IMG/VR virus record: IMGVR_UViG_3300049979_000188
DNA from: a virus
DNA length: 64,000 nucleotides
Reading direction: 5' to 3' (one strand)
Every line of letters starts with the position of its first letter. Position 1 is the stretch's first letter. This document shows, in pieces, positions 6,210-45,183 of the stretch. The notes beneath the pieces are model-generated. The model ran no database searches and had not been told where the DNA came from. It worked only from the letters and a program-made list of their open reading frames with translations. The position numbers and the translations under genes are program-made.

Positions 6210-6871
6210 TGCCCAACCGGCGTGGCCAATAGGCGCGCATCTACCTGCCCCATACGTAAGCCTTGGTTGAGGTGAGGCATCCCCAGGACGAGCTCGCGGT
6301 GAAGCTTAAGCAGGATGTGCACGTGGCAGACTTTCTGCGCCCGGTTTGGGTCGTCGTGCACGCACCAGCACGCCAGGCGCTTGCCCGTTAACTCGGGCAA
6401 GGCCGCCACCAGATGGGGCGTACCGCGCACATATTGCTCGTAGGCAGCCAGCACGGCCGGCCGGTCAGCTTCGCGCTTGAGCGGAAAAGGATTCGCCCAC
6501 ATACTGGCGGTTAGGCCCCGGTGCTCATTGGCCCGGCCCATGTAGAGGTCATAGCGCGCGTGGGGCGTGCGTTTGAGGTTTAGCAGGGTGACATAGGGAT
6601 AAGCCGGATTCTGAGCGGCTAACTCACGGGCCACAAACCAGCTCTCAAACCGGCACTCCGCTACCGGGTAAAGTCCGCCTTGTCGGCCTCGAACAAACAG
6701 GGTAAGAGATTCGGGTTCGTAGAGGCTGGTTAACCGCTCACCGGGTAAACGATTCGTAATATTGCCCATTAGGGCGAAATCAGCCACCACGTCCGTAATA
6801 GCTTCCTGCTCTTGGGCTAACCAGGTAAAGGGCATTCCGTGGTAGTACCGGGCCAGCTTACTAAGCTCCAT
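6206..6871 (-). CDS. DUF4326 domain protein
   Basis: C-terminal YMGR...S.WANPF...Y..Y...L.EL.GK.LACWC...CH..IL. Confidence 0.8.
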   Translation of the reverse strand: MELSKLARYYHGMPFTWLAQEQEAITDVVADFALMGNITNRLPGERLTSLYEPESLTLFVRGRQGGLYPVAECRFESWFVARELAAQNPAYPYVTLLNLKRTPHARYDLYMGRANEHRGLTASMWANPFPLKREADRPAVLAAYEQYVRGTPHLVAALPELTGKRLACWCVHDDPNRAQKVCHVHILLKLHRELVLGMPHLNQGLRMGQVDARLLATPVGQ

Positions 6872-7262
6872 ACACAAAGTCACGTAGTTGCCCGCCCTTG
6901 GCCCGGAAGTCACGCACCAGGCTTACCACCTTACGGCCGGCATCAGTAATCGAGACAAAGGGGTTTACCTCGGTACCCAGGTTCTTTACCCAGTCAATGT
7001 CTTCCAGGTCTTCGAGTACGTCGAGGTCGTCGTGGTTGGGGTCGGGAATGGCACTGCCCTGGTACTGCGTACCATAGGTTGGCTTCCAGGTGGAGTAGCC
7101 CGTACCCAGGCCATTGCCAAAGCCACGCTTATCGGCATTGATACGCAAGCGCTTATCGTCGACAACCCCTTTTTTATCAACGGCACAGCTCTCCAGGTAG
7201 AGCAGCAAACTGTAGTGGTCACGGCCCCAGGTTTTGGTGCCAACGCGTTCGAGCTTATTCAT
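6861..7262 (-). CDS. hypothetical protein
   Basis: ORF tiling. Confidence 0.7.
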   Translation of the reverse strand: MNKLERVGTKTWGRDHYSLLLYLESCAVDKKGVVDDKRLRINADKRGFGNGLGTGYSTWKPTYGTQYQGSAIPDPNHDDLDVLEDLEDIDWVKNLGTEVNPFVSITDAGRKVVSLVRDFRAKGGQLRDFVYGA

Positions 7263-7276
7263 GTGAAAAGTAAGGT

Positions 7277-7522
7277 TTACGGCTGGGATGTTACCGCCGC
7301 CATGGTAATGGTTATGCGCAGCTCCGAACCTTGCCCGATAGTCATCACGCAGGGAAGAGCCGCGGTCGAAGTAGCCGGTTCACGGAGCAACTGGGCTTGA
7401 GCCGCCTCGGCCTTGTCGAGGTTAACCACCAGGTCAGCAAAAAAGGCGATGCAGGCAAACGCCACCAGCACCACCAGCAGGAAGTAGACTACCTCCTTGT
7501 ACTCAGACAAGAACTTACGCAT
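7277..7522 (-). CDS. small membrane protein
   Basis: single hydrophobic helix VVYFLLVVLVAFACIAFF. Confidence 0.55.
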   Translation of the reverse strand: MRKFLSEYKEVVYFLLVVLVAFACIAFFADLVVNLDKAEAAQAQLLREPATSTAALPCVMTIGQGSELRITITMAAVTSQP

Positions 7523-7817
7523 TCGTCTGCTCGTTAACAACATCACGTGGGTCAACAAAGCTGTCGCGCAGCACCACAAACGCCTGGTGCAGGCGCTTGA
7601 GCCGGGCTACTACCTCCGGACTCCAGCTGTGCTTGAGGGCGAGCTCCTGCATGGCCGATTCCTCGGGAGCATCAGGGTCATCGTAGTCGCTCCAGCCCAT
7701 CACAATGCCGTAGAGCCAGGCATCACGCCGATTAGCGCCCATGTCGCGCGAGGTGAAGGCACAAATGTTTTCCAGCGCAATAAGCGGGTTCTCGGGAAGC
7801 TGGTACGGGTTATGCAT
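7515..7817 (-). CDS. hypothetical protein
   Basis: ORF tiling. Confidence 0.65.
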   Translation of the reverse strand: MHNPYQLPENPLIALENICAFTSRDMGANRRDAWLYGIVMGWSDYDDPDAPEESAMQELALKHSWSPEVVARLKRLHQAFVVLRDSFVDPRDVVNEQTNA

Positions 7818-8658
7818 CGAGGGTTACTTTACGGTAGGTAAGGGAAATACGCGGCCCCACGTCCCCTTTCTGGGGAAGTATGGCGTGGAGGTAGTTTTGC
7901 TGGCACGCGGCGTTCATCATCAGCACGTCGCCGTTCTCCAGCTTCAAGTCGATGCGCTCACCCGACTCTTTCTCCCGAAAACTGAAGGTACGCGTAGCCC
8001 CCAGGTTAACCGTGGCAATGACCGGGGCTGGGCCTAGCTGGGCTTCCTTATCCGAATGCCAGCCAATGGTTTGCTTACCATTTATATAAAGGTTGAGCAG
8101 TACGGAGTTATACCCAAAAGCCGTCGACTCGAATTGCTCCAGCTGCTGGCGAATGCCCGTTAGTACGGGCGTAAAGCCTTGACTGGGCAATTCCAAATCG
8201 GCGTATTGGTAAACGCCTTTATCGAAGGCCGGGTCCACGGCATAGGCCATCGCCCGCTTGATGTGCCGCAGCTGTCCTTGCTTGTCGGTCAGCGTGCTGT
8301 ACCAGGTAATATCCTGGGCCGTCTTGGGGTTGCTGCCACGCAAGGCCTCGAAATAAGTCTGGGCCAGCTCGGGCGCAAAGAACCCGGGCAAGTGCAGAAA
8401 ATCCGGTGATTGACCAGCCCGCGTTGCGTTGTAAACCAGCGCGTCGCGCCGCGCATACTCGGTAATGGCGCCCACTTCCCAGCTCATGGCTTCCAGATTA
8501 ACCGCTCCGGGACGAGTCGGATAATCAGAGAAAACCTGCCCTTCTGTGTCACTATTAAGCCGGCCATCCAAATACCAGGTAGTGCCGTCGTGCAGGGCCG
8601 CCGCAATAGTACCTCCGTCACGGTAACGGGTAATACTCTTAATATCGGTAATATTCAT
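7810..8658 (-). CDS. alkB: AlkB-family 2OG-Fe(II) dioxygenase (ALKBH2/3-like) with an extra N-terminal domain
   Basis: YNSVLLNLY..G..TIGWHSDKE...IATVNLGATRTFSFR...L.NGD.L.M....Q..Y.HAI...RISLTYR. Confidence 0.88.
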   Translation of the reverse strand: MNITDIKSITRYRDGGTIAAALHDGTTWYLDGRLNSDTEGQVFSDYPTRPGAVNLEAMSWEVGAITEYARRDALVYNATRAGQSPDFLHLPGFFAPELAQTYFEALRGSNPKTAQDITWYSTLTDKQGQLRHIKRAMAYAVDPAFDKGVYQYADLELPSQGFTPVLTGIRQQLEQFESTAFGYNSVLLNLYINGKQTIGWHSDKEAQLGPAPVIATVNLGATRTFSFREKESGERIDLKLENGDVLMMNAACQQNYLHAILPQKGDVGPRISLTYRKVTLDA

Positions 8659-9511: not shown

Positions 9512-10063
9512 CTACTGGTAATAAAACGTATCCTCAGGTTGGCGTACCTGAGTATAGGGTAAACATACCCAGGTGCGCTCCCGTCGGCCCAAACCCAGGG
9601 GATAGCGAGCCGGGTCGAGCTGGCTGAGTAAGTCCTTGGCCAAACGCAGCTCACACCAGGCCACGATGCGCCGGGTGGTCAGCTCGTAGAGAAAATACCG
9701 CGTGCTCACTACCCCGGTCCTGGGCCAGGGTTCCGGCAACCGCCGATTATGCAAAAAGCTGCGCGCAGCCGCTAGCTGAGCCTCCTCATAGCTAGCCTGG
9801 TGCCCCCCGCTAGCGGAGTCGACAACCCGGTAGTTGCGGGCCCGTTTCAAGTACGACCACTCGTAAGTCGTATATTCGAGTTGAGGCGGAATGATGTGAG
9901 GCAACCCAGTGAGCCCCTGAATGCGAATGGGGTCACTGTAGCGCGAATGCGAGGTAATTTGGAACCGGTAACCGCAGTAGCGGCTGGCCCAGCGCAACCA
10001 CACTTGTGGGCGGGCCCTACGCCCGCCAGCCTCCAGGTACGGCGCGTTCTTGAACATCGACAA
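9512..10063 (-). CDS. hypothetical protein
   Basis: ORF tiling. Confidence 0.65.
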   Translation of the reverse strand: MSMFKNAPYLEAGGRRARPQVWLRWASRYCGYRFQITSHSRYSDPIRIQGLTGLPHIIPPQLEYTTYEWSYLKRARNYRVVDSASGGHQASYEEAQLAAARSFLHNRRLPEPWPRTGVVSTRYFLYELTTRRIVAWCELRLAKDLLSQLDPARYPLGLGRRERTWVCLPYTQVRQPEDTFYYQ

Positions 10064-10982
10064 AGTGAGCCGGATTACCGACCTGGTATTTGTGGGCGTT
10101 TATGTTGTGCAACAGTTCCATAGCCTGCAGGTAGCGGTTGAACGTTGCCTGACTTTCGGCCCCAAGCTCGGTGGTGTAGGCCTCCACGCTGCCAAAGTTA
10201 AGCTCGTGGGCGTAGTCAAAGCCGGCCGTGCGCATCTGCAGGTAGAGCTCAACGGCCCAGTAAGGGGCGCCAATCATTTGCTCATCGTCGCGCTCGTCCC
10301 ACACGTCGCCTTGCGGGGTGGCTTCCATAATACGGGTAGGCACGCCTAAGTAAGCGCCTACCTGATAGACTTCACTCTTGTGCAAATCGCCGATAAACTG
10401 CAAGTCAACCATGGCGTCGGAGGCCTTGCCAAAGAAGCCCAGGTAAGCCCCCTCATCCCGGTTGGTCGTGCCGGCTACCAGGGAGCGAAACCCCTCCGTC
10501 TGCAGAATAGCCGCCTGGAAGTAAAACATGGGGGTACGCAACACGGAGGCCATCTGCCCGTTGGCCCAGGCCTGGTGACGATAGGTTTGGCCGACCCCAT
10601 TGACCATCGCCTCGTAGGCGGTAGCCAAGTTGATGGAGTCGTACGTGATAACGCTACCGTTGCGGTGGCGAATGTGCTCGACCACTTCGCGGGCCTTGTT
10701 ACTAGCCTCGGCCTGGCCACTAACCCCGCTCACTCCGTACATGGGTAAGCCCATCGCCGCAATGCGCTTAATGGGCGAGTCAGGTTGACGCGCGGCCGCA
10801 TCGAGCAGGTAAAGCGCAACTGCCGAATCAATGCCCCCGGAAATGCCCAGCACTACCGCATCGAGCGCCTGGGTACGGAAGAAGTTATTGAGGGCCCGTA
10901 GCTTGGCGGCCACGTAGCTTTCGACCTCGAAGCCGCGGGTCTTTTTGAAGCGGGAAATCAGGGCTTGCAAGTCAGCACGCAT
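10017..10982 (-). CDS. nadE: NH3-dependent NAD+ synthetase
   Basis: VVLGISGGIDSAV PP-loop, GTTNRDE, FIGDLHKSEVYQVG..LGVP..I....PQGD...DE..IG. Confidence 0.92.
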   Translation of the reverse strand: MRADLQALISRFKKTRGFEVESYVAAKLRALNNFFRTQALDAVVLGISGGIDSAVALYLLDAAARQPDSPIKRIAAMGLPMYGVSGVSGQAEASNKAREVVEHIRHRNGSVITYDSINLATAYEAMVNGVGQTYRHQAWANGQMASVLRTPMFYFQAAILQTEGFRSLVAGTTNRDEGAYLGFFGKASDAMVDLQFIGDLHKSEVYQVGAYLGVPTRIMEATPQGDVWDERDDEQMIGAPYWAVELYLQMRTAGFDYAHELNFGSVEAYTTELGAESQATFNRYLQAMELLHNINAHKYQVGNPAHFVDVQERAVPGGWRA

Positions 10983-10987
10983 AAGGC

Positions 10988-11671
10988 TTAATCAAGGGGG
11001 ATAAAAGGAGAGGGAACTATGCTATGGCTCAGGCCGTCTTTGCCACTGTACTCGGTCGTAACAGTGTAGATTTTTTCACTTTCGGCCGCGGCCACGACCT
11101 CGTCCCAGCTTAGCTCAACCAGCGAGTCGGGAACGACGCCTTTACCAGGCTCAAACTCGTAGCACCAGTAATGGCGGTACTCGGCCTTATACTGGTGCAT
11201 CGCGTGGTGACTCTGATAGAGCTGGCGGGCGTAGCGATAGGTGCCATGGTTGTAGAAGGGATGAAAACCCGCTTCGAGCTGACCTGGCCACTGCGCACCA
11301 TAGCCGTACCACGTTTGCGTGTTGGAACGAGCTGCCACGGGCGGTAGGCCCAGCGGTAGAAACCCAAGACGCTGCAGCTCCAGGAAAATACTAAGCTGAT
11401 TGAGGGCTTCCTTCAGTACGGCGGTCCCCCCGTGCTCGGGGTAGTAGACAAAGCGCTGTAGCTGGTAATCCGAGTTGAGTTGAACGTGCTCCTGGTAGGG
11501 CTCACGGTGAGGCAGCTTGCGCAAGCTGGTGTAAGGCAGACACGTGCGCAGCGTCACAAACGTGCTGTCCGTCTTGACCAGTTCAAAGGGCAGGCCATAG
11601 CCCAGGGCCTGCCCCAAAATACGCTGTATTTCAGCTTTAGGCAAGTCGACAAATTCTTGGAAGGGTCTCAT
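10988..11671 (-). CDS. hypothetical protein
   Basis: 227-aa ORF starting 5 nt from a promoter motif. Confidence 0.7.
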   Translation of the reverse strand: MRPFQEFVDLPKAEIQRILGQALGYGLPFELVKTDSTFVTLRTCLPYTSLRKLPHREPYQEHVQLNSDYQLQRFVYYPEHGGTAVLKEALNQLSIFLELQRLGFLPLGLPPVAARSNTQTWYGYGAQWPGQLEAGFHPFYNHGTYRYARQLYQSHHAMHQYKAEYRHYWCYEFEPGKGVVPDSLVELSWDEVVAAAESEKIYTVTTEYSGKDGLSHSIVPSPFIPLD

Positions 11672-11676
11672 GCCAA

Positions 11677-11705
11677 GTATACGCTTAACCTGGGCTATCC
11701 GTTAC
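11677..11705 (-). promoter_or_regulatory. phage ECF-like promoter motif copy
   Basis: GTAACG-N16-CGTATAC. Confidence 0.75.
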
Positions 11706-11987
11706 CAGGCGTCCCCACCCCAGTTCGTCGAGCTGACGCAGCAAGTCAGCAGCATCCGTAAAGCTAAAGCCCGCGTACGGGTAAGGACCTTGCTCCGGGT
11801 AATTGGAAAGGGGCTGCTTAAGCACGGCTACCCCGGATGCCCAAAGCTCCAGCTCGCGCTTCTCGGGGCTAATAGATTCGCCTTCCCAGCGAAAGCCGCC
11901 TGGCCAACCCGCGCCACTGAGCAAGTCTACTCCCCGGGCCTGCAGTTCCTGCTGCAGCATACTATCGACAAAAAAAGAACGTGTCAT
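11685..11987 (-). CDS. hypothetical protein
   Basis: ORF tiling. Confidence 0.6.
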   Translation of the reverse strand: MTRSFFVDSMLQQELQARGVDLLSGAGWPGGFRWEGESISPEKRELELWASGVAVLKQPLSNYPEQGPYPYAGFSFTDAADLLRQLDELGWGRLVTDSPG

Positions 11988-11993
11988 TTTAGG

Positions 11994-13550
11994 TTAGTTT
12001 TCAGGTTGAAGAGCTTGTAAACGGGTTAGTTCTGCGAGGGCTTGTGTATGAAAGGCAGGGTCCGTATCAGCGTGATACGCCACGTTGGCTTGCCAAACCG
12101 CGAGTGAAAAAGCCATCGGCTCGCTAATTGACGCCCGGTAATAGGGGCAAACGTAGGGGTAGACGTAGGGAACCCGGGTGCGCACCTTGACGGAGTCCAT
12201 ATCGCCCTTTTCCACGACGAGTCCCCCAAAGGGGGCCCCCAGGATAAAGTCACGCGCATCGAGTACTTCCGTATCGGAACCTGATTCAACCAGGGCCCAA
12301 GTCTTGCCGATGGTGACGCCACCCTTCGCCAGGGCCTCGGTGACGAACCGGAAGGTCGCCCCGCCTTGCACATCGTCATCAAATAAGTCGTAGCTACCGG
12401 GGGGAATCTGCGCGCCCCAGCGCACGTACTCTTCGACCGTGCAGGTAGCGTGCATTTCAGGTCGCACCCCGAAGCTAAGAAAGCGCAGGCCAAAGGTATC
12501 GTAGACCCGGCTTACGGCAAAGACATGGTCCGCCTTATTAGGTGGGTCACTTCTCACGTAAGGGTCCAGGCTAATGAGGGGTTCGCGGCGTCCGTACAGG
12601 GGCCCAAAAGGGGAAGGGTGGTCTACGCTGGGACGACGGCGACGCGCAAAGTCGAGTTGCTGCTCCTGCAGTCGCACTACCTGAACTTCGTCAAAGTAGG
12701 GACGCAGCAGTTCCACGAAGGGCAGCTCCCGCTCCTGCGTTACCCGTACCACAAGCTTGCGCGGGGTAGGTGGGTACGTAAAAGCTTGGCGCAGCTGGGT
12801 GGAAGAAAGACTGCTGGTGTTTACGGCTTCGAGAATCACACTCGGATAGGGGCCGTCGAGTAAGGAGCCTACGTTAGGGCCGTGGTAGTGCTGCTGCAGG
12901 GCCCGCACCTCGGCCATGGCCTGGCCATACATGGCTTCGTAGCCAGGCCGGCTTACCACGACCGCCTGGCCGTGGTGGGCAAAGGCGTTGGCAAAGCGGG
13001 CGTTATCACCGCCACAGACGTAAAAAACGGGTACGTGGTGGCCCGTGCGCAACTGTACGTAGCGTTCGAGTCGCATAACCAACTCCGTAAAATTAAGCGA
13101 GCCCGGGGCAAATACCCCAGCCCAGGGGTCTACATTAAGCCAGGGCTCAAACTTGGTAGCATCGGCCAGCAGGCGAATACGCTGGTGAATGGGCAAGGCT
13201 TGCTCACCGAGCTTGTAGCGGATGTACTCGTCGTGGTCGGGCGCCAGAAAGCCCCCTACGCAGGTATAACCAGCCGCGTTCACCGCATCGCGCGCTACGC
13301 GCATCATTTGCAGGTGACCCTCGTGCACGGGGTTAAACGAGCCCGTCCCCAGTACGATGGCCGGCCGCTTGGCCTGGGCTAACTGCTCGCGTACGTAGCT
13401 CAGGGGGGTGCAGTCCAGCGCCAGGCTTTGCGGAATGTTGAGCGGACTGGCAAGCGAATCAGTAAAGAAGCCAGCCTGCGCAATACCGGCCTCCCCAAGC
13501 TCCCCGACGACGGTGCTAAAGAAAGGGTCCTGGGCGATTTTGTGGTTCAT
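11994..13550 (-). CDS. NadD/NMNAT-like nucleotidyltransferase fused to a C-terminal PRTase-like domain
   Basis: GSFNPVHEGH (HxGH), FYVCGGDN, SLSSTQLR; C-terminal DLFDDDVQGGATF resembles a PRPP-binding loop; start trimmed to MNHKIA. Confidence 0.8.
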   Translation of the reverse strand: MNHKIAQDPFFSTVVGELGEAGIAQAGFFTDSLASPLNIPQSLALDCTPLSYVREQLAQAKRPAIVLGTGSFNPVHEGHLQMMRVARDAVNAAGYTCVGGFLAPDHDEYIRYKLGEQALPIHQRIRLLADATKFEPWLNVDPWAGVFAPGSLNFTELVMRLERYVQLRTGHHVPVFYVCGGDNARFANAFAHHGQAVVVSRPGYEAMYGQAMAEVRALQQHYHGPNVGSLLDGPYPSVILEAVNTSSLSSTQLRQAFTYPPTPRKLVVRVTQERELPFVELLRPYFDEVQVVRLQEQQLDFARRRRPSVDHPSPFGPLYGRREPLISLDPYVRSDPPNKADHVFAVSRVYDTFGLRFLSFGVRPEMHATCTVEEYVRWGAQIPPGSYDLFDDDVQGGATFRFVTEALAKGGVTIGKTWALVESGSDTEVLDARDFILGAPFGGLVVEKGDMDSVKVRTRVPYVYPYVCPYYRASISEPMAFSLAVWQANVAYHADTDPAFHTQALAELTRLQALQPEN

Positions 13551-13804
13551 GATGTAGCGAGTAAGCAGGTAAGAAGTAGATGCAGAAACTTGACCACCAG
13601 AAAGTAAGGCCAGAATAAGACAACCACTACCTGACTTATCAGGTAAGATAGTAGCAAGGCCCACTCGGGCGCGGGTAGGGCCAGTTTCTCTACGAAGTGG
13701 GTCCAGAGCGACGTGCGGTACGCCACGTAATGGCAGGCCGGTAAGACGACCAGGGCGTAGTAGAGGCCAGCTACTAGCCAGTAGGTGAACACAGTTGTTA
13801 CCAT
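13547..13804 (-). CDS. small membrane protein
   Basis: two hydrophobic helices. Confidence 0.55.
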   Translation of the reverse strand: MVTTVFTYWLVAGLYYALVVLPACHYVAYRTSLWTHFVEKLALPAPEWALLLSYLISQVVVVLFWPYFLVVKFLHLLLTCLLATS

Positions 13805-14007
13805 GCGATGACATTCCCTTCGAGCCACTCGTAAACACTGTCTCGCCAGCCCGTGTCATTCATGCCGTACGCCTGGGCATCGTAGCGCAGGGCAGCGGGG
13901 AGCTGGTCAAAAATACGCTGCAGCTCACGGGGGGAATAGCTATCGCCCGTGGCATCGACCAGTACATCGTGGAAGTGGTCCCAGTCGTTTCTTGTGAATT
14001 CAGCCAT
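13798..14007 (-). CDS. hypothetical protein
   Basis: start MAEFTR; tiles with its neighbours. Confidence 0.55.
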   Translation of the reverse strand: MAEFTRNDWDHFHDVLVDATGDSYSPRELQRIFDQLPAALRYDAQAYGMNDTGWRDSVYEWLEGNVIAW

Positions 14008-14014
14008 AAGGTGC

Positions 14015-14827
14015 TTACTTGCTAAAGGGGGCAATGGCTTCGAAAATAACGTCGAAGCGAATGATAATGCGCGGGCCTTCCCCGCCTTCGTATTTGGACA
14101 CGTCATGCGCCAGGCGGTGGTCAAACAAGAGCACCGAACCCATTTGAGGAGTATAGGCGTCGCGCACCAGCTCCGGGTCGCTTACCTCGTGGTCCCAATC
14201 CTGGTGACGACGCATGGCGACGGGTACCAGGTTCTGTCCATCCGCAATAAAGCGCGTAGCGCCCGTCGAGTTGGTTGTCAGGTAGAGTACCCCCGACATG
14301 AGGGTACGTTGCAGGCCTCCGGGGTAGATGTAGCCGGCATCGTAATGGGTGAAGTGCTGGCCGCCCTGGTCGTAGCGCATATAGCGCGCCATCGGAGAAA
14401 CCCCTACTGGGGCCCAGTAACGGTGGCCATGGGGTCCTTTTCCTTCGGCATCCGCGTCAAACCAATCGGTAGCTGAGTACGCACCCATCAGGCGTCGAGC
14501 AGGCAGAAAAGGTTTAATAAGCGGCCAGAGCGCTTCCCCAAAGCCTGGGTCCCAGCACGTGATGCGTTGCGAGCCAAGCTCACTGGTGGCCGCCGTTACC
14601 GGTCCACCCGGCGCCATGCCTTGAATGGTTACCGGGGCAAAGCTACCCTGCCGCTCGAAGTAGGCCCGAAGTAGTTGGCAGCTGGCTGGGGTCAGCAGGT
14701 CGCGTACGTAGATTTTATGGTCCAGTGCACGCAGTAGGGCGGCGCCCGGATTGCCTGAAAGCTCGGGAAATACTTCTTGGCTTACGCAGCCGCCGGGAAT
14801 GCGGCTCATGTCAGGAGCACTGTTCAT
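14015..14827 (-). CDS. 2OG-Fe(II) oxygenase (prolyl-4-hydroxylase-like)
   Basis: RYMRY..GGQHFTHYD (HxD), SGVLYLT..GATRF, LLFDH...HDV, RIIIRFD. Confidence 0.85.
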   Translation of the reverse strand: MNSAPDMSRIPGGCVSQEVFPELSGNPGAALLRALDHKIYVRDLLTPASCQLLRAYFERQGSFAPVTIQGMAPGGPVTAATSELGSQRITCWDPGFGEALWPLIKPFLPARRLMGAYSATDWFDADAEGKGPHGHRYWAPVGVSPMARYMRYDQGGQHFTHYDAGYIYPGGLQRTLMSGVLYLTTNSTGATRFIADGQNLVPVAMRRHQDWDHEVSDPELVRDAYTPQMGSVLLFDHRLAHDVSKYEGGEGPRIIIRFDVIFEAIAPFSK

Positions 14828-17256: not shown

Positions 17257-17285
17257 GTATACGCCTTAAAACAAGTACGCGTTAC
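17257..17285 (-). promoter_or_regulatory. phage ECF-like promoter motif copy
   Basis: GTAACG-N16-CGTATAC. Confidence 0.75.
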
Positions 17286-17299
17286 GAGCCTATTTAAGT

Positions 17300-18025
17300 G
17301 TGTCAGGACCCGTTACACTGACCGCAGCTATGGCCAAAGAACTTAATTTTTCACCCGACGTCTCGCCCCTTGGCAGCTCCGCTGTTACGGGCACTGTTCG
17401 ACAAGAAAAACCCGTCTTCGTAAGCAAAAAGACGCCTCCCAGTGTAGTTCGCCAGGTAGTAGTTACCGCCTTAAGCCAAGGCTATCAGGTCACGGCTGTT
17501 GCCCCGGCTTCGAGTGGCAACGCCCCGCTTAGCGGCTACGTCATCTACCGAAACGACCGCCCCAGCCCCCTGGCCACTGTTTCGCAGCTGCCCTACCTGG
17601 ATTTAACCGCCCCCGCCGGTAGCCTACCTGGCTACCGCATAAGCGCGTTGAACCTCTCGGGTGTGGAAGGCCCTAAGTCAACGATGACTACGGTAAGTGC
17701 GGGCGGCCCTGTCGTTACCGTTCCGACGCCAAGTCTACCCACCAGCGTCACCATTGACGGCAGTGTGGTGGTAAGCGGAGAAACTATTTTTAGTGCCGAT
17801 GACCAGGTCCTGACCCTCTCGGCCGCCGGTCTGCTCACCGCTAGCTTTAGCAGCGGCAGCGGGACCGTTGAGATTAGCTACCCGCCGGCTACGAGCTGGT
17901 CCGCCCTCAATGCCACAACCGGCCTGAACGTAGCCGCTAACCGCAATTTCATTCTACGCGTGAAGCACCCCGTGAACACGGCTTTTACGGCCGTGCTGAC
18001 CATCAACTATGTGCCAGCTACTTAA
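17300..18025 (+). CDS. FN3/Ig-like virion accessory or tail-fibre protein
   Basis: GYVIYRND...YRISALNLSGVEGPKS FN3 signature; S/T/P-rich. Confidence 0.7.
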   Translation: MSGPVTLTAAMAKELNFSPDVSPLGSSAVTGTVRQEKPVFVSKKTPPSVVRQVVVTALSQGYQVTAVAPASSGNAPLSGYVIYRNDRPSPLATVSQLPYLDLTAPAGSLPGYRISALNLSGVEGPKSTMTTVSAGGPVVTVPTPSLPTSVTIDGSVVVSGETIFSADDQVLTLSAAGLLTASFSSGSGTVEISYPPATSWSALNATTGLNVAANRNFILRVKHPVNTAFTAVLTINYVPAT

Positions 18026-18041
18026 AAAGTTAACCACCTCT

Positions 18042-19025
18042 ATGTCGCTCATTATTACCCGCCGCGTAGCCCCGGCGGCGCCCAACCTGGACCCTTTGCT
18101 CACGGAGCAACTGCAAGCGCGCCCTACCACGGTGCAGGTGCAGAACTTGATTGCCAACGCAGTGTCCAGCATACCAGGAAGCGACGAGTCACTGACGGAG
18201 GCCTTACTCATTCGCCCCACCACCACGCAGGTGCAGAACTTAATCACCCAGGCAGCTTTTGAGGCAGGCATCGGCACAACCCTAACGCCTTTCACCCCTG
18301 CCGCCCTGGCTGGGAGCCTCCCCCTCTGGCTGGATGCCGGTGATAGCACTACCCTTACCATAAGTGGCGGTAGCGTAAGTAACTGGCGTAACAAGGGAGA
18401 CGCGGGCGGTAGCTTCGTCCCCGTACTGAGTGCCCCACTCTTTCAGGATAACGAAGTAGTCTTCAACGCTACGCCCCTGAGCAGCGACGTGGCGTTTCCC
18501 ACCAGCTTAAACTTTATAGTACTGGCCGTAACCCGGCAATCGGATTACAGCACCGAAGCCCACGTGCTTAATGTAGCCGGCTACATTACCACCCTGGGGG
18601 TTAAAAACGGAACCGTATATGGGTTTACCCAACCTGACTTCCAGAACCAAGTAAGTCAAGCAGTTGGTCCTGGAACGACGCTGCGCGGAACCGTTTTTTC
18701 CCGGGAAGAACGCCTAAGTCGCACGCGTATTGGCCAGAACGGCGCACCTGGCGCTCTTATTACGGCGACTGCAGTTACCCTGGCGCAAGGCCCCGCCCTA
18801 CTCGGCGGAGAGCGACAGTCAAACAATAGCGTAGAGAATCCTTTCAAAGGGAATATTGTGGAATTGGTGTACTGCACGACCAGTTCCATGGCTCTCATCC
18901 GTAAGCTCGAAGGCTATTACCGCCTCAAGTACGGCATCGCCTTACCGCCCACGCACCCCTACGCGACGACGCCTCCTTACGTTGAAAACCTATCCCCACC
19001 CGATTTAACGCCCCAGGTAGTTTAA
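18042..19025 (+). CDS. LamG/concanavalin-like lectin, putative receptor-binding protein
   Basis: LWLDAGD...VSNWRNKG and FKGNIVEL...IRKLEGYYRLKYG motifs; N-terminal duplicated RPTTxQVQNLI. Confidence 0.75.
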   Translation: MSLIITRRVAPAAPNLDPLLTEQLQARPTTVQVQNLIANAVSSIPGSDESLTEALLIRPTTTQVQNLITQAAFEAGIGTTLTPFTPAALAGSLPLWLDAGDSTTLTISGGSVSNWRNKGDAGGSFVPVLSAPLFQDNEVVFNATPLSSDVAFPTSLNFIVLAVTRQSDYSTEAHVLNVAGYITTLGVKNGTVYGFTQPDFQNQVSQAVGPGTTLRGTVFSREERLSRTRIGQNGAPGALITATAVTLAQGPALLGGERQSNNSVENPFKGNIVELVYCTTSSMALIRKLEGYYRLKYGIALPPTHPYATTPPYVENLSPPDLTPQVV

Positions 19026-19026
19026 A

Positions 19027-20967
19027 ATGCCCTCTATTAACAGTCTTATCGTCAAGTTTGGGGTACTGATGAATCAGTACTCGCTTACCTCCTACCGGCC
19101 CAAAGTTGCCCGTGAAACCACGACCTGGAAAGACGGCACCTTACTGGTCACCACGCGCCTGAATGACGCCTTAGGTACGCTCGTGCCTGACCCACGCACG
19201 CAAGGCCCCATTGGCAGTGTGCTTTATACCACGGCCTACGCGGACGAGGAAATTATCTACTACGAACAAGTTTTCCCACGGGAAGAGCTGGATGTTCGTG
19301 ACTTTGGGCTGAGTGGTAAAACACCCGATTGCAGTCCACTCTGGGAAGCACTCAGCAATTACTTCCCCCCAAGCTTACCCCAGTGTTTTCTTTTCCAGCC
19401 AGGGACTACGTATACCTTCAAAACGGGTCTCAAGGTTGATTCGCGGGGGCATCGTCTCTTCGCGCCCAACCCCAAGCGCCCGGCCGTAGTTAGCGTACCA
19501 GGGGGCATAACGTCGCTTGAGAGCTACGGTCCGAACGGGACAACTGGTTTGCAGATTGAGAATTTTAGGTTCGGAGCCTCCAGCCAGGTCAAAGATGGTG
19601 CGGCTGACCAGGATGGCAATGTGTACCCGAGCACGGACATTCGCAGCGATGACCCTTATGCCTGTCTCTACCACGGAGCTCTTATCAGCAACGTGGTTCA
19701 GTTTAAGAACGTGGAATTCGGTGGCTTTAGCGGCAACGGTCTTAAGGCCATCGCCTACATCGACCCCAATAGCACGTATACGGCAAACACGTCGCTAAGC
19801 ACCTTTATTGGGCTGAAAATTACGGGTTGCGGTGGCGATGGTATTCTTATCAACGGCGCCGATGCCAACCACATGCTCTTCATGGACCTTGACATCCGTG
19901 ACAACGTAGGCTTTGGGTATACGGACGACAGCTTACTGGGCAACCACGTCATGTTTGCCCACTTCAACAACAACAAGCGGGGCACTTTCCGGGTGCGTGG
20001 GCCAGGCAACTCGGCCTTGTTGAACATGATTTACACCGAGGAGATTCAGGACTACCTGACCTTGCCTTCCACCAATAAGGAAAAGGGGTATGGCGGCTAT
20101 CTTTACGGCAATGCGAAGTTGAGCGGCGGGACAGTTTCGCCCGAAGGGTCGGGCATGCCTGGTAGCAAGGTTTTCTGCTACAACCAGGCTGAGGCCTGCG
20201 TCGGCAGCTTTAGCTCAGGCATAAGCTTTGGGACGGTAAGCATCGGCAAGGGTGGGCTTTACTTCAACGGTGGACTCACCTTCACCCCCGTCAACGAAGC
20301 TGAAGGCTATCGCTACCACCAGGGTAGCAGCTTTACGGGCAACATTGCCGAGTACCTGACCCGCAACCTGAGTTTAGCACAGACAGGCCGGCCAGCTCAG
20401 AGTGATGCCGTCAACTTGGTCACGCCCTTCATCAACGGGAATCGACACCTGTTGGTGCGTGTCTATGAAGAACTGACTACGTATAAAAACCAGTCGGGGG
20501 ACAACTTCACGTTCTTTGCCGGTGACCGCATAACCGAGCACTACCCCAATGCCTGGCGCCCACTTGCCCTGCTCTGCGTCGGCGGTGGGCAGTACCGCGA
20601 TGACTATACCACCTCAATGACGCTCACGCCGACTGCACGCATCGACGGCAACTATGAACACGTGTTCTCAGGTACCGACCCGATACCTGCCATTGGCTCC
20701 TTCATCACCGTTGCCGGAATTGGCCCGTTCCAGGTAGCAGGCCGCGGCCTCGACCCCCGGGCCATTACCTTAGCACCCAGCTCGCTGCCCATCACGGGGG
20801 GAAGTCACGCGGTGGGATACGCTAAACCTACTTTCCGCCCGGAAGGCGCCGGCTCGGGCTCCACGGAGCAGCGACCGGACCTAACCGGTTACGGCGGGCC
20901 CTGGCAGTACTGGAACACAAGTACCAATACGCTGCAGACCTGGACCGGTACTAACTGGATAGGCTAA
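19027..20967 (+). CDS. pectate-lyase-like beta-helix tailspike/depolymerase
   Basis: DVRDFG..., repeated 'I..C.GDGI.I.G' beta-helix coils; C-terminal YWNTST..LQTWTGTNW. Confidence 0.8.
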   Translation: MPSINSLIVKFGVLMNQYSLTSYRPKVARETTTWKDGTLLVTTRLNDALGTLVPDPRTQGPIGSVLYTTAYADEEIIYYEQVFPREELDVRDFGLSGKTPDCSPLWEALSNYFPPSLPQCFLFQPGTTYTFKTGLKVDSRGHRLFAPNPKRPAVVSVPGGITSLESYGPNGTTGLQIENFRFGASSQVKDGAADQDGNVYPSTDIRSDDPYACLYHGALISNVVQFKNVEFGGFSGNGLKAIAYIDPNSTYTANTSLSTFIGLKITGCGGDGILINGADANHMLFMDLDIRDNVGFGYTDDSLLGNHVMFAHFNNNKRGTFRVRGPGNSALLNMIYTEEIQDYLTLPSTNKEKGYGGYLYGNAKLSGGTVSPEGSGMPGSKVFCYNQAEACVGSFSSGISFGTVSIGKGGLYFNGGLTFTPVNEAEGYRYHQGSSFTGNIAEYLTRNLSLAQTGRPAQSDAVNLVTPFINGNRHLLVRVYEELTTYKNQSGDNFTFFAGDRITEHYPNAWRPLALLCVGGGQYRDDYTTSMTLTPTARIDGNYEHVFSGTDPIPAIGSFITVAGIGPFQVAGRGLDPRAITLAPSSLPITGGSHAVGYAKPTFRPEGAGSGSTEQRPDLTGYGGPWQYWNTSTNTLQTWTGTNWIG

Positions 20968-21010
20968 AAAAAAAAGCGGTACGTCCTGGGTGGACGTACC
21001 GCTTTTTTTT
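20966..21010. terminator. bidirectional intrinsic terminator
   Basis: A-tract, GCGGTACGTCC/GGACGTACCGC 11-bp stem, T8; lies between convergent units. Confidence 0.9.
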
Positions 21011-21019
21011 CTGCATGCT

Positions 21020-21660
21020 ATTCCGGTCACAGGAACCCGGCGCGTGAGCGGGCGGAATGCACGGCCGGGTCGAAAGCCGGTAGTTAGTTAAGCCAAGCGC
21101 TAAAGTACGTTTCACTGGAGGCTTCGCTGAACTCGAAGCTTTCTACCTGACGGGCAAACCGCCGGGTCACAGCTACACCGACCAGTGTCCGTTCCCCCCG
21201 CCCTGGTCGGTACAACTGGGGGTGCACGGGATTTCAAAGGGGTCTCTCGCTCCCCTATCCAGCAATCAAACCAGCGACTACACCCCCTTATGGGATAAAC
21301 GTACGCTACAGTCCGACTGGTCGAGCTGCGCTTTTTTCGCCGCGTAGCCTGCTAAAAGCCACCCCTACGGGCAGTCACATAGGCGTCCTTGACGCTAACC
21401 CGGTCAAGGAGTAACCGATTTCCCACCTCGGTTGGGGACGGTTTGGATTGCCTGTTACCAGCCTCGGGTCGTCGTACCCCATGCACTTGCTGTCACCAGC
21501 GTTCATCGACTGCGCGTTCCAAGCAACAGGCCGACTTCGGTAGATATGTCACGCAGCCACCTCACCCATGCGCGGAGATGGTTCCCGATTTAAGCTGACC
21601 TGTGTACGGAGACCAGCTGCGTGTCTTGCCCTGTCCGTTCACCCAGCGGTAGTGGACGAC
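21020..21660 (-). ncRNA. large structured ncRNA candidate, ROOL/GOLLD class
   Basis: ~640-nt gap with no convincing ORF; closing helix GGTCA..GGGAACC / GGTTCCT.TGACC ~550 nt apart; many internal stems with G.U pairs. Confidence 0.7.
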
Positions 21661-21666
21661 GGGGGA

Positions 21667-22005
21667 CTAGCTCCAATCACGGGGTATCAAGTTCTTGGCC
21701 CAGTGATTTACTTCGTTCATGTCGGCTGCTTTACTAAAATGCACATAGCCTTCGTCTCGAATGACTTCTACCGAGCCACAGGTCAAACAAGCTTTGCCCT
21801 CCATGTAAAAGCCGCTACCGTAGTCCGAGTAGATGTCAACTTCTTCTTCATTACCACAATCACAGCTAAGCGGGTAGTGCTGGCGCCAATTGGCGTTGAC
21901 TTCCTCTATCGTTTCGTAGTGATGCGAGATAACATAGTCATCTCCGGTCTCACAATAGCGAATATGACCGTCAGGGAATTGAATGGCGCCAAGTGCGTGT
22001 GACAT
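21667..22005 (-). CDS. hypothetical Cys-rich protein
   Basis: CDCG and CLTCG; downstream of a promoter motif. Confidence 0.65.
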   Translation of the reverse strand: MSHALGAIQFPDGHIRYCETGDDYVISHHYETIEEVNANWRQHYPLSCDCGNEEEVDIYSDYGSGFYMEGKACLTCGSVEVIRDEGYVHFSKAADMNEVNHWAKNLIPRDWS

Positions 22006-22031
22006 GTAGGAAGCTGCTCGTAGTGTAGCAA

Positions 22032-22060
22032 GTATACGTACGAGCAGCTTCCTGCGTTAC
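22032..22060 (-). promoter_or_regulatory. phage ECF-like promoter motif copy
   Basis: GTAACG-N16-CGTATAC. Confidence 0.75.
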
Positions 22061-22065
22061 CACAC

Positions 22066-22938
22066 CTAGTCCAGAATAAGCCAATCGGTGGCCAGCCAGT
22101 CTGCCTGGTAGGGTTGCGCCGCTTCCATAGTCCCGTTTTTGAGCACGGCCACCACAAAATTTACCCCCATGGCAATGCCCGAAACCGGTAGGTTATCTAC
22201 GGCAAGCACCTCGCTTACTGTGGGAACGAAGACGGCGCTGTCAGTAAGCAGCCAGTAGCCATCCCAGTGCAGACGTGCAATGCGCTTGCCTCGTTTGAGG
22301 GCCTCGATGGCCGCCCCGAAGGAATATAAGCGCTGGTCAGGCCGCCAGTTAATACTCTCCCGGCGCTCTAAGTCAGCGGGTTCTGCAGCTGGCGCTGGTT
22401 GGCGTTCCGGAGCAAAAGGCAAGTCAAAGGCCGCATCACTGCCGTAGGAGGTTCCGTCGTCGTACCAGCGGCGCGTGCGGTAGGCATTCGCGCGCCACAC
22501 GTCCCCGATAATACCGGCCCAGCTTCCGTCCGGGTACACGGCGTAGCTTAACTCATGGGCCTTGAGCTTATGCCCGCCCTTGGTGCGCTCAACTTTGCCC
22601 AGGTCGTGTTTGAGGCGACTCTTACGGTAGACCTGGTACTCGGCCTCCCCGCCCTTGATAAAGTACTTCCCAAAGTCCCCTTCCGAGAAGAAATGACTGC
22701 TGGCCCCGGACCCATCCGGGTTACGTCGCACCACCGAATAGGCAATGCGTCCGTCACCCTGGGGGGTCACGTAAGCTTCGCACGCATCGCCTACGAAGAA
22801 CCTGTTCCAATCGTTAGAGGCAACTTCGTCACACTCGCCCATGAAATGGCTGGGATGGGGTTCGCGCACGCACATGCAGTTGAGGAGTACGCTCTGGGTT
22901 GGCACATCTTGGGTGTGCTTGAGGTCTGAGTTTTCCAC
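22066..22938 (-). CDS. multidomain protein with a C-terminal DUF2829/Tad2-like domain
   Basis: SFGAAIEALKRGKRIARLHW ... PYQADWLATDW. Confidence 0.75.
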   Translation of the reverse strand: MENSDLKHTQDVPTQSVLLNCMCVREPHPSHFMGECDEVASNDWNRFFVGDACEAYVTPQGDGRIAYSVVRRNPDGSGASSHFFSEGDFGKYFIKGGEAEYQVYRKSRLKHDLGKVERTKGGHKLKAHELSYAVYPDGSWAGIIGDVWRANAYRTRRWYDDGTSYGSDAAFDLPFAPERQPAPAAEPADLERRESINWRPDQRLYSFGAAIEALKRGKRIARLHWDGYWLLTDSAVFVPTVSEVLAVDNLPVSGIAMGVNFVVAVLKNGTMEAAQPYQADWLATDWLILD

Positions 22939-23338: not shown

Positions 23339-23451
23339 GCCGGGTGCCGGGAGTCGAACCCGGACGTCAGGTTGCAACCCTGACCGGAGCGCGTTTGCGA
23401 GGTAAGCCTCCGGCGTCTGCATCACTGCGCACCAATTTCGCCACACCCGGC
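23339..23451 (-). ncRNA. tRNA-core RNA: Leu/Ser-type scaffold, hairpin inserted in D-loop, 18-nt anticodon loop
   Basis: GCCGGGTG/CACCCGGC acceptor, TTGG D-loop, CCGGAG/CTCCGG stem, long variable arm GTCAGG/CCTGAC, CCGGG-TTCGACT-CCCGG. Confidence 0.75.
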
Positions 23452-29365: not shown

Positions 29366-29610
29366 CACCTGAGCCAAGGGAAGGACTCGAACCTCCACAG
29401 CTGCTGAGAATCCTCTTAAGCAAGACCCCGTCGGGTTATTCACTTGCAGCTTATGTTGAATTTACGGTTTGCCATACCGAACCCTGACTTGTTCTGGAAT
29501 TTGGCCGCGTATTCTGTTCTTTGCGACGGGTCTTAGTTCACGTATATTCCAGTTACCCAGCTGTCGAATCAAGGCGGCGTGCATCCCGCACACCTGATGT
29601 TCCCCGACCT
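29366..29610 (-). ncRNA. tmRNA-like structured RNA candidate
   Basis: GATTCGAC then ACAGCTG/CAGCTGT helix, AAGACCCGTCG/CGACGGGGTCTT helix, GGAGG-TTCGAGT-CCTTC T-arm; acceptor 5' strand unclear. Confidence 0.3.
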
Positions 29611-32262: not shown

Positions 32263-32401
32263 CTGACAAGATAGGGCTCGAACCTATGACCTGCGTACTT
32301 GGCAGAAAAACTGACTGTATTTTGACACCCTAACGGGCGCTTACTCACGTAAGTACAGTTCTGCTGCGGTTCTGCTGCTCTACCACCTGAGCTACTTGTC
32401 A
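32263..32401 (-). ncRNA. tRNA-core RNA with a branched anticodon domain
   Basis: TGACAAG/CTTGTCA, GCTC/GAGC, GCAGAA/TTCTGC, CTGTA/TACAG, TTAC-GTGA-GTAA, ATAGG-TTCGAGC-CCTAT. Confidence 0.75.
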
Positions 32402-32731
32402 AAAGATGACCGCGGGTAAGACCTACTAGAACCCCACGGTCGACGCATCCTATTGTCCAAAGTGCCCCCTCTTGTGGGTAAACACTTAGGGATGCTTTGC
32501 CCTACACCCTATGGTGGCCGGTACCCTATCTGAAGGGGTCCACCCTAAAAGTGCATGGCACATCCTCCTTGTCGACTGACGGTTCCCGCTACCCAAGGAG
32601 GTCGGCGCGGGAACTACACCAGCAGCTCACCTGCTGGAACCCGGTAGATAAGCGCGGGTCGTAATTATCACTTTCCAGTATTTCAAAGAGCACGTTTACC
32701 CGCGTCAAGGGGTACGTAAGAGTGAATACGA

Positions 32732-32951: not shown

Positions 32952-32980
32952 GTATACGTATAAACTACGTTACGCGTTAC
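32952..32980 (-). promoter_or_regulatory. phage ECF-like promoter motif copy directly upstream of an ncRNA
   Basis: GTAACG-N16-CGTATAC. Confidence 0.75.
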
Positions 32981-34965: not shown

Positions 34966-34994
34966 GTATACGCAGTTTGCGCTGGCTGCGTTAC
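34966..34994 (-). promoter_or_regulatory. phage ECF-like promoter motif copy heading the RNA island
   Basis: GTAACG-N16-CGTATAC. Confidence 0.75.
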
Positions 34995-45154: not shown

Positions 45155-45183
45155 GTATACGCCGAACTCACCTGGTACGTTAC
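45155..45183 (-). promoter_or_regulatory. phage ECF-like promoter motif copy
   Basis: GTAACG-N16-CGTATAC. Confidence 0.75.

What the first reader, a model, noticed from the sequence alone, without database searches (positions are those of the whole stretch)
21020..21660. ~600-nt ornate ncRNA (ROOL/GOLLD-class candidate) at the end of the RNA island
Seen: ~640 nt without a credible ORF, ending at a bidirectional terminator. Minus-strand pairings include GGTCA/TGACC plus GGGAACC/GGTTCCT joining 21580-21600 to 21025-21037, GCCTGTTGC/GTAACAGGC, GCTGCGTG/TACGCGGC, CATCTC/GAGGTG, TCCTTGAC/GTCAAGGA, TACCGACCAG/CTGGTCGGTG and GCTTCG/CGAAGC, rich in G.U pairs. Established: GOLLD and ROOL are large phage- and tRNA-associated RNAs of unknown function, and ROOL is about this size. 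Inference: a member of one of these classes or a new one, here in a probable Bacteroidota phage.
Basis: partly seen in the sequence, partly recalled or inferred. Interest (0 to 1): 0.75.

Follow-up and report, generated by a model that had tools for sequence, protein, structure and literature searches.

The report
New large folded jumbo-phage RNA
The gene-free stretch encodes a roughly 650-base, intricately folded non-coding RNA that a distantly related jumbo phage keeps at the same place with compensating base changes; it matches no catalogued RNA family, including ROOL and GOLLD, and its job is untested.

Summary
A real structured RNA gene, minus strand about 21670 to 21013, ending at a bidirectional terminator (21010-20968), in a 203-kb jumbo phage from a leaf metagenome. 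The window copy alone folds no better than shuffles (z about -1). The decisive evidence is a homologue in a related phage (L149, about 570 nt) at the same position behind a Tad2-like gene. One block is 93% identical while neighbouring proteins are 38-55% identical. Substitutions show no codon pattern, and nine chosen helices keep all 63 pairs, 12 by double changes. Two pseudoknots tie the 5' and 3' ends to internal loops. No Rfam family matches, while ROOL and GOLLD controls score 261 and 287 bits, and their signature words are absent. Group I, group II and RNase P cores were not found. It is not a tRNA-island member but the 3' end of a separate transcript next to anti-defence and NAD-salvage genes. 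Best reading: a new family of stable trans-acting phage RNA. Limits: two distinct sequences, no expression data. This scan had not seen it on other DNA.

The parts
21013..21670 (-). Large structured non-coding RNA (about 655 nt; homologue about 570 nt at L149:3781-4352)
21658..21670 (-). Conserved 5' end (invariant CUAGUCCC, overlapping the UAG stop of the 112-aa gene); 21666-21658 is the 5' strand of pseudoknot PK1
   Evidence: 9/9 pairs in both copies, 2 double and 2 single changes
21593..21620 (-). Variable hairpin kept in shape with a different sequence; its loop (21604-21599) pairs with the 3' tail (PK2)
   Evidence: 6/6 Watson-Crick pairs in both copies, 4 differing; shuffle p 0.03 and 0.024; needs a 4-column shift of the sequence alignment
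21539..21594 (-). Most conserved block (92.9% identical over 56 nt), containing the compensated hairpin 21581-21557 and a long invariant strand with several possible partners
21386..21410 (-). 8-bp stem with 4 double changes and an invariant 9-nt loop; the loop can pair with 21169-21163 or with the 5' end (unresolved)
21220..21266 (-). Conserved module: 5-bp stem with one double change (21256-21252/21242-21238), invariant purine-rich loop, followed by a conserved UUGAAA
21170..21218 (-). Long hairpin (16 bp here); its G-rich loop (21202-21194) is the 3' strand of PK1
21079..21149 (-). Conserved 3' domain: invariant GGUAGAAAG, a hairpin with 3 double changes (21139-21121), and conserved strands to 21079
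21028..21047 (-). Conserved 3' segment and the 3' strand of PK2 (21033-21028)
20968..21010 (.). Bidirectional intrinsic terminator; the homologue has a different terminator at the same place
21667..22005 (-). 112-aa orphan gene directly upstream; unrelated to the gene that precedes the homologue
22033..22060 (-). Phage-specific promoter-like motif, likely start of the transcript that carries the RNA (inferred)
   Evidence: 4 copies in the window, all on the minus strand in intergenic DNA, 0.01 expected by chance
22066..22938 (-). Gene with a Tad2-like (anti-Thoeris) domain; also just upstream of the RNA position in two related phages

Best explanation
A new family of large, pseudoknotted non-coding RNA of a jumbo-phage lineage. 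It is made as the 3' part of a short phage transcript (promoter-like motif at 22060, one small gene, RNA, terminator). It folds into a compact multi-domain shape in which both ends are locked to internal loops, and most likely persists as a stable RNA that works in trans as a scaffold or decoy during infection, in the manner proposed for ROOL and GOLLD. SHOWN: non-coding, conserved more than its neighbours, compensated helices, wobble-type changes that fix the strand, fixed position, terminator in both phages. INFERRED: transcription from the motif, release from the mRNA at the stop codon, stability through buried ends, action in trans. SPECULATIVE: a counter-defence role (from its neighbours, a Tad2-like gene and an NAD-salvage cluster; about 0.25), and that some loop pairings join separate molecules into a multimer (about 0.2).
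For: Homologue at the syntenic position; blastn blocks 92.9%/56 nt (E 4e-17) and 74.7%/194 nt (E 1e-24) against 38-55% protein identity for Tad2-like, 2OG oxygenase, adenylyltransferase and NadE. Mismatches spread evenly over codon positions (21/23/26) and indels of 1, 2, 11, 14 and 44 nt. 63 of 63 pairs kept, 12 double changes, 5 one-sided changes all through G-U wobble; slid controls 34-53% paired. Unbiased helix count against column shuffles: helices of >=8 bp with a double change 3 vs mean 0.22 (0/100); >=6 bp with >=2 double changes 4 vs 0.85 (1/100). Consensus fold z -5.05 against column shuffles. Homologue MFE z -2.39 without its terminator. Upstream and downstream genes differ between the phages while the RNA stays. 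A third relative has about 0.94 kb without a called gene at the same place (no DNA available).
Against: Only two distinct sequences (L151-L153 are identical to L149), so covariation cannot be tested statistically, and the helices were picked from these same two sequences. Column shuffles do not keep stacking context. The window copy folds no better than shuffles. Several invariant strands have rival partners, so the full fold is unresolved. There is no dedicated promoter at the 5' end. The link to Tad2-like and NAD genes may be plain synteny in one lineage.
Confidence: 0.62

Rival explanations
1. A cis-acting 3' untranslated structure that stabilises or regulates the mRNA of the upstream small gene(s) and never acts as a free RNA.
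For: It starts at the stop codon (window) or 2 nt after it (homologue) and ends at the terminator; no promoter-like site lies at its own 5' end.
Against: The upstream genes are unrelated in the two phages. 570-655 nt with long invariant single strands is far more than a stabilising 3' hairpin needs. It cannot be a riboswitch-like leader, because no same-strand gene follows before the terminator.
Confidence: 0.14
2. A ribozyme, new or remotely derived from group II introns, that cuts itself free at the 5' boundary or acts on another RNA.
For: Sharp conserved 5' end bound by distant loops, reminiscent of exon-binding sites. A loop-to-3'-tail pseudoknot is also described for circularly permuted group II RNAs (PMC8637638). 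Long invariant strands are typical of catalytic cores (own knowledge).
Against: No domain V (catalytic triad, 5 bp, bulge, capped stem) in either copy and no conserved GUGYG. Group I-like words in the window copy are lost in the homologue. No Rfam intron or ribozyme hit.
Confidence: 0.12
3. A very divergent ROOL or GOLLD.
For: Similar size to ROOL (average 581 nt, PMC5737381), phage location, tRNA island in the same part of the genome, several pseudoknots; one shared 8-mer with the ROOL consensus (GUGGCUGC).
Against: No hit to either model at E<=10 for two copies; 0/7 and 0/7 signature words; the two-sequence profile does not hit ROOL or GOLLD loci. ROOL's long terminal helix has no conserved counterpart.
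Confidence: 0.06
4. A DNA-level signal (origin, packaging or recombination site) or a relic kept by descent, with no RNA function.
For: Poor folding z-score of the window copy; no transcript data.
Against: One-sided changes keep pairing only through G-U wobble on one strand; double changes in stems; conservation above neighbouring coding DNA; position between a stop codon and a terminator.
Confidence: 0.06

Closest known systems
ROOL RNA (Rfam RF03087; PMC5737381, PMC12286853)
   Same: About 580-660 nt, phage-encoded, multi-junction fold with pseudoknots, no ORF, tRNA island in the same genome region, function unknown.
   Different: No model match; none of seven ROOL signature words; no conserved long 5'-3' terminal helix; 59-60% G+C; sits at the 3' end of a protein-coding transcript rather than among tRNA genes; nanocage formation untested.
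GOLLD RNA (Rfam RF02032; PMC12286853)
   Same: Large phage RNA of unknown function with variable and conserved domains.
   Different: Shorter; no match to the conserved GOLLD 3' domain; not directly behind a tRNA; here the 5' and 3' parts appear to be tied together by pseudoknots.
Circularly permuted group II RNAs (PMC8637638)
   Same: ORF-less large RNA with a pseudoknot from a 5' hairpin loop to the 3' end.
   Different: No domain V or VI, no internal AY/GUGYG splice-site pair; smaller than the 850-1000-nt constructs listed there.
Group I introns and group I-like ribozymes
   Same: The window copy has words resembling the P, Q, R and S elements in the right order.
   Different: The Q-, R- and S-like words are not kept in the homologue, P4 and P6 do not pair, no host gene, no RF00028 hit.

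Membership tests
ROOL (RF03087) | Match to the covariance model (gathering score 99.1 bits) | tested here: not met
   No hit at E<=10 for window or homologue; control EFDG1 scores 260.6 bits
ROOL (RF03087) | Conserved signature words of the consensus | tested here: not met
   0 of 7 exact in both copies, 7 of 7 in the control
ROOL (RF03087) | Length near 580 nt, phage location, several pseudoknots | tested here: met
   About 655 and 570 nt; PK1 and PK2
ROOL (RF03087) | Long helix joining the 5' and 3' ends (P1) | tested here: not met
   The proposed closing helix keeps 3 of 7 pairs in the homologue; terminal duplex at chance level
ROOL / GOLLD | RNA-only multimeric nanocage | not testable with these tools
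   Needs mass photometry or cryo-EM
GOLLD (RF02032) | Match to the conserved 3' domain model (gathering score 150 bits) | tested here: not met
   No hit; control scores 287.3 bits
GOLLD (RF02032) | Conserved signature words | tested here: not met
   0 of 7 exact in both copies, 7 of 7 in the control
ROOL / GOLLD | Location in or next to a tRNA array | tested here: inconclusive
   Nearest tRNA-like element 1.7 kb and nearest Rfam tRNA 3.4 kb upstream in the window; nearest called tRNA 8.4 kb upstream in the relative; protein genes in between
OLE | Match to the Rfam model | tested here: not met
   No hit in the all-family scans; no positive control run
Group II intron, canonical or permuted | Domain V with catalytic triad and bulge | tested here: not met
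   No D5 words in either copy; compared by eye with the CP alignment; no Rfam hit
Group I intron | Conserved P3-P7 core with G-binding site and P4-P6 | tested here: not met
   Core-like words of the window copy are deleted or changed in the homologue; no Rfam hit
RNase P RNA / tmRNA | CR-I and CR-V words; T-arm and acceptor ends | tested here: not met
   Absent even with one mismatch; ARAGORN and Rfam negative
Any stable ncRNA | Discrete transcript | not testable with these tools
   No RNA run holding the stretch was listed; this says nothing either way

The most novel reading that the evidence does not exclude
A third, unrelated class of large ornate phage RNA, released from the 3' end of an anti-defence transcript, whose loop pairings build a compact or multimeric RNA-only particle that counters host immunity alongside Tad2-like and NAD-salvage genes. 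This would give the first functional handle on giant phage RNAs.
Probability: 0.15. Interest if true: 0.88.

Novelty: new variant of a known kind. Interest (0 to 1): 0.62.

Why it matters
Large, intricately folded bacterial and phage RNAs are rare, and those of known function are mostly ribozymes or core machines. The functions of ROOL and GOLLD, now known to form RNA-only cages (PMC12286853), remain open. This RNA is an independent family of the same size with end-locking pseudoknots and two natural variants about 63% identical over aligned columns (355 of 563), ready for synthesis, probing and cryo-EM. It can test whether cage building is general among large phage RNAs. Its fixed place beside a Tad2-like gene and an NAD-salvage cluster suggests a concrete counter-defence experiment.

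Tried and rejected
Rfam scans of window, region and homologue: only tRNAs and chance hits. blastn against cultured phages and plasmids: chance only. Exact-pattern and back-translation scans of IMG/VR and JGI contigs: all hits chance by nhmmer. Searches of about 1,100 sampled genomes around a Cytophagales MAG (its family, order and phylum, plus one further family) and of seven large phage records with DNA, pattern or a 141-position model: not found in those searched. No RNA holder listed among public runs: no evidence on expression. Two other studies hold single short near-identical fragments of 21165-21411; too small to use. Group I reading built from P/Q/R/S-like words: rejected, not conserved. 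A tRNA-like element at 21287-21218: no T arm, 5' strand not conserved. L1-stalk or double T-loop reading of 21262-21228: resembles the ribosomal motif from memory but conflicts with the compensated 5-bp stem and is weaker in the homologue; left open. Group II domain V on either strand: not found. Antisense ORFs of 69 and 144 aa: negative codon scores. NadE relatives outside the clade (L009, L150, L161) show other gene orders and no RNA match in the DNA fetched. Literature searches found no description of this family, but the library is incomplete.

Full report
Setting. The window is part of a 202,851-bp contig; the one run that holds the whole stretch is a leaf metagenome. Gene content is that of a jumbo phage: a tRNA array at 25-35 kb, NadE, a cytidylyltransferase-like protein, a LAGLIDADG nuclease and many orphans. 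No cultured phage is close. The Bacteroidota host is not established: the TAnnTTTG motif occurs near chance level (36 vs 28).

Observation from the window alone. Between the stop of a 112-aa minus-strand gene (21667) and the stop of a convergent 646-aa gene (20967) there is no credible ORF, and a 19-bp perfect inverted repeat with A/T runs forms a bidirectional terminator at 20968-21010. Terminal duplex, tetraloop count and local folds are all at chance level. Rfam gives nothing. On this evidence alone the finding would have been weak.

Finding a homologue. Direct DNA searches failed (see Tried and rejected). I therefore took the NadE gene 10 kb downstream, collected relatives and built a tree; the window protein groups with P0003, P0004 and P0018 (SH-aLRT 98, quick tree). 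The P0018 contig (L149, JGI) has the order Tad2-like gene, two small genes, a 690-nt gap, and further on a 2OG oxygenase, an adenylyltransferase and NadE. The gap is homologous to the finding: 92.9% over 56 nt and 74.7% over 194 nt, against 38-55% amino-acid identity in the shared proteins. Three more contigs carry the identical copy, so there are two distinct sequences.

It is RNA, not protein. In the 3' half mismatches fall 21/23/26 on the three codon positions and the alignment has indels of 1, 2, 11, 14 and 44 nt. Nine helices chosen from the two copies keep 63 of 63 pairs, 12 with both sides changed and 5 with one side changed through G-U wobble, which fixes the minus strand; sliding the partners drops pairing to 34-53%. 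Because that structure was picked from the same sequences, I ran an unbiased count: conserved helices of at least 8 bp with a double change number 3, against a mean of 0.22 in 100 column shuffles (none reached 3); helices of at least 6 bp with two or more double changes number 4 against 0.85 (1 of 100). The consensus fold has z -5.05 against column shuffles, a control that does not keep stacking. The homologue alone folds at z -2.39 without its terminator.

Anatomy (minus strand). The conserved sequence begins at 21670, on the stop codon of the upstream gene; in L149 it begins 2 nt after an unrelated gene's stop. Best-supported hairpins: 21581-21557, 21410-21386 (4 of 8 pairs swapped, loop invariant), 21256-21238, 21211-21177 and 21139-21121. 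Two long-range pairings involve the ends. PK1 joins 21666-21658 to the G-rich loop 21202-21194 (9/9 in both, 2 double and 2 single changes). PK2 joins the loop of a variable 5' hairpin (21604-21599) to the tail 21033-21028 (6/6 Watson-Crick in both with different sequence; shuffle p 0.03 and 0.024; needs a shift of the alignment). Unresolved: the partner of the invariant loop 21402-21394 (21169-21163 or the 5' end), whether GGUAG at 21147 pairs with 21543-21539 or 21083-21079, the partner of the invariant strand 21560-21549, and a rival pairing for the PK1 loop suggested by RNAalifold. The middle (21530-21415 and 21325-21270) is variable in length and sequence.

Transcription unit (inferred). 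A motif GTAACGC-N15-CGTATA occurs four times in the window, always intergenic and on the minus strand, against 0.01 expected; one copy at 22060-22033 precedes the 112-aa gene. The simplest unit is promoter, small gene, RNA, terminator, about 1.05 kb. The RNA is thus not part of the tRNA array: a terminator-like hairpin at 23328-23297 and protein genes intervene, and in the relative the called tRNAs lie 8-10 kb upstream. What stays with the RNA position in three phages is the Tad2-like gene upstream and the NAD-salvage cluster downstream; the gene just beyond the terminator differs (a three-gene plus-strand cassette here, a GIY-YIG nuclease in L149).

How it most likely works. A transcript ending in a 570-655-nt folded domain with both ends paired to internal loops should leave a nuclease-resistant RNA once the short coding part decays or is cut (inference). 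With no downstream gene it cannot be a leader switch, and its independence from the upstream gene argues against a gene-specific 3' element. I therefore favour a stable trans-acting scaffold or decoy (0.62). In ROOL a pairing first read as tertiary from covariation proved to be intermolecular (PMC12286853), so PK1 or PK2 could be bridges between molecules; this is untested. A counter-defence role is suggested only by neighbourhood.

Comparison. ROOL and GOLLD controls score 260.6 and 287.3 bits; neither copy of this RNA hits any family, none of 14 signature words is present, and the two-sequence profile does not hit the control loci. Group I, group II (including the permuted form), RNase P and tmRNA cores are absent. 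It works, if my reading holds, like ROOL and GOLLD, but is not a member of either. Literature searches found no matching description, and this scan's index has no look-alike in other genomes, although it holds many other uncatalogued large phage RNAs whose sequences I could not compare.

Verdict. Real feature (about 0.9), new family (about 0.85), function open. Interest 0.62: a solid new large-RNA family with a testable fold, limited by two members, no expression data, and the growing number of similar orphan RNAs.

Noticed in passing
window 17258-17285, 22033-22060, 32953-32980, 34967-34994 and about 45155-45183 (all minus strand): Repeated phage-specific promoter-like motif GTAACGC-N15-CGTATACT in intergenic DNA (4 exact copies, 0.01 expected; a fifth variant). 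No related phage was found with it in IMG/VR or JGI scans.
   Followed up: partly
window 22009-22022 and 22039-22052: A perfect 14-bp inverted repeat overlaps and flanks the promoter-like motif upstream of the 112-aa gene; could be an operator or a hairpin that controls this unit (seen).
   Followed up: no
window 23339-23451 (minus); L160:6227-6313: The tRNA-shaped element with an enlarged core has a 77.5% identical counterpart in the related phage, so at least one of the island's odd tRNA-like RNAs is conserved.
   Followed up: partly
window about 29370-29600 (minus): Words resembling tmRNA ends (a GAUUCGACAGC-like 5' motif, a T-arm-like 3' end and a short reading frame between them); not called by ARAGORN or Rfam, fold z 0.0.
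   Followed up: no
window 32400-32730 (minus): A further ORF-poor stretch of about 330 nt between tRNA-like elements folds better than shuffles (z -2.55); candidate second structured RNA.
   Followed up: partly
L160:3381-4445, 6708-7581 and 7807-8495: The related phage's island holds long gene-free, hairpin-rich stretches (one of about 690 nt ending in a terminator-like hairpin), a tRNA with anticodon UCA, and a second Tad2-like gene.
   Followed up: no
L149:4465-5058 (minus): A free-standing GIY-YIG homing-type nuclease gene converges on the RNA's terminator in the related phage, where the window instead has a three-gene plus-strand cassette (17300-20967); the site looks like an insertion hot spot.
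   Followed up: no
window 10017-14827 (minus): NadE, an adenylyltransferase-like gene and a 2OG-Fe(II) oxygenase form a cluster shared with many large phages and some bacteria; a likely NAD-salvage module.
   Followed up: partly
L150:8810-9214 and L161:14579-14983: Two other large phage-like contigs carry an SmpB gene next to the same NAD cluster.
   Followed up: no
L158:1501-1906 (LR745206) and L159 (IMG/VR 420-kb record): GOLLD matches (287 and 148 bits) in two huge phages, used here as controls.
   Followed up: partly
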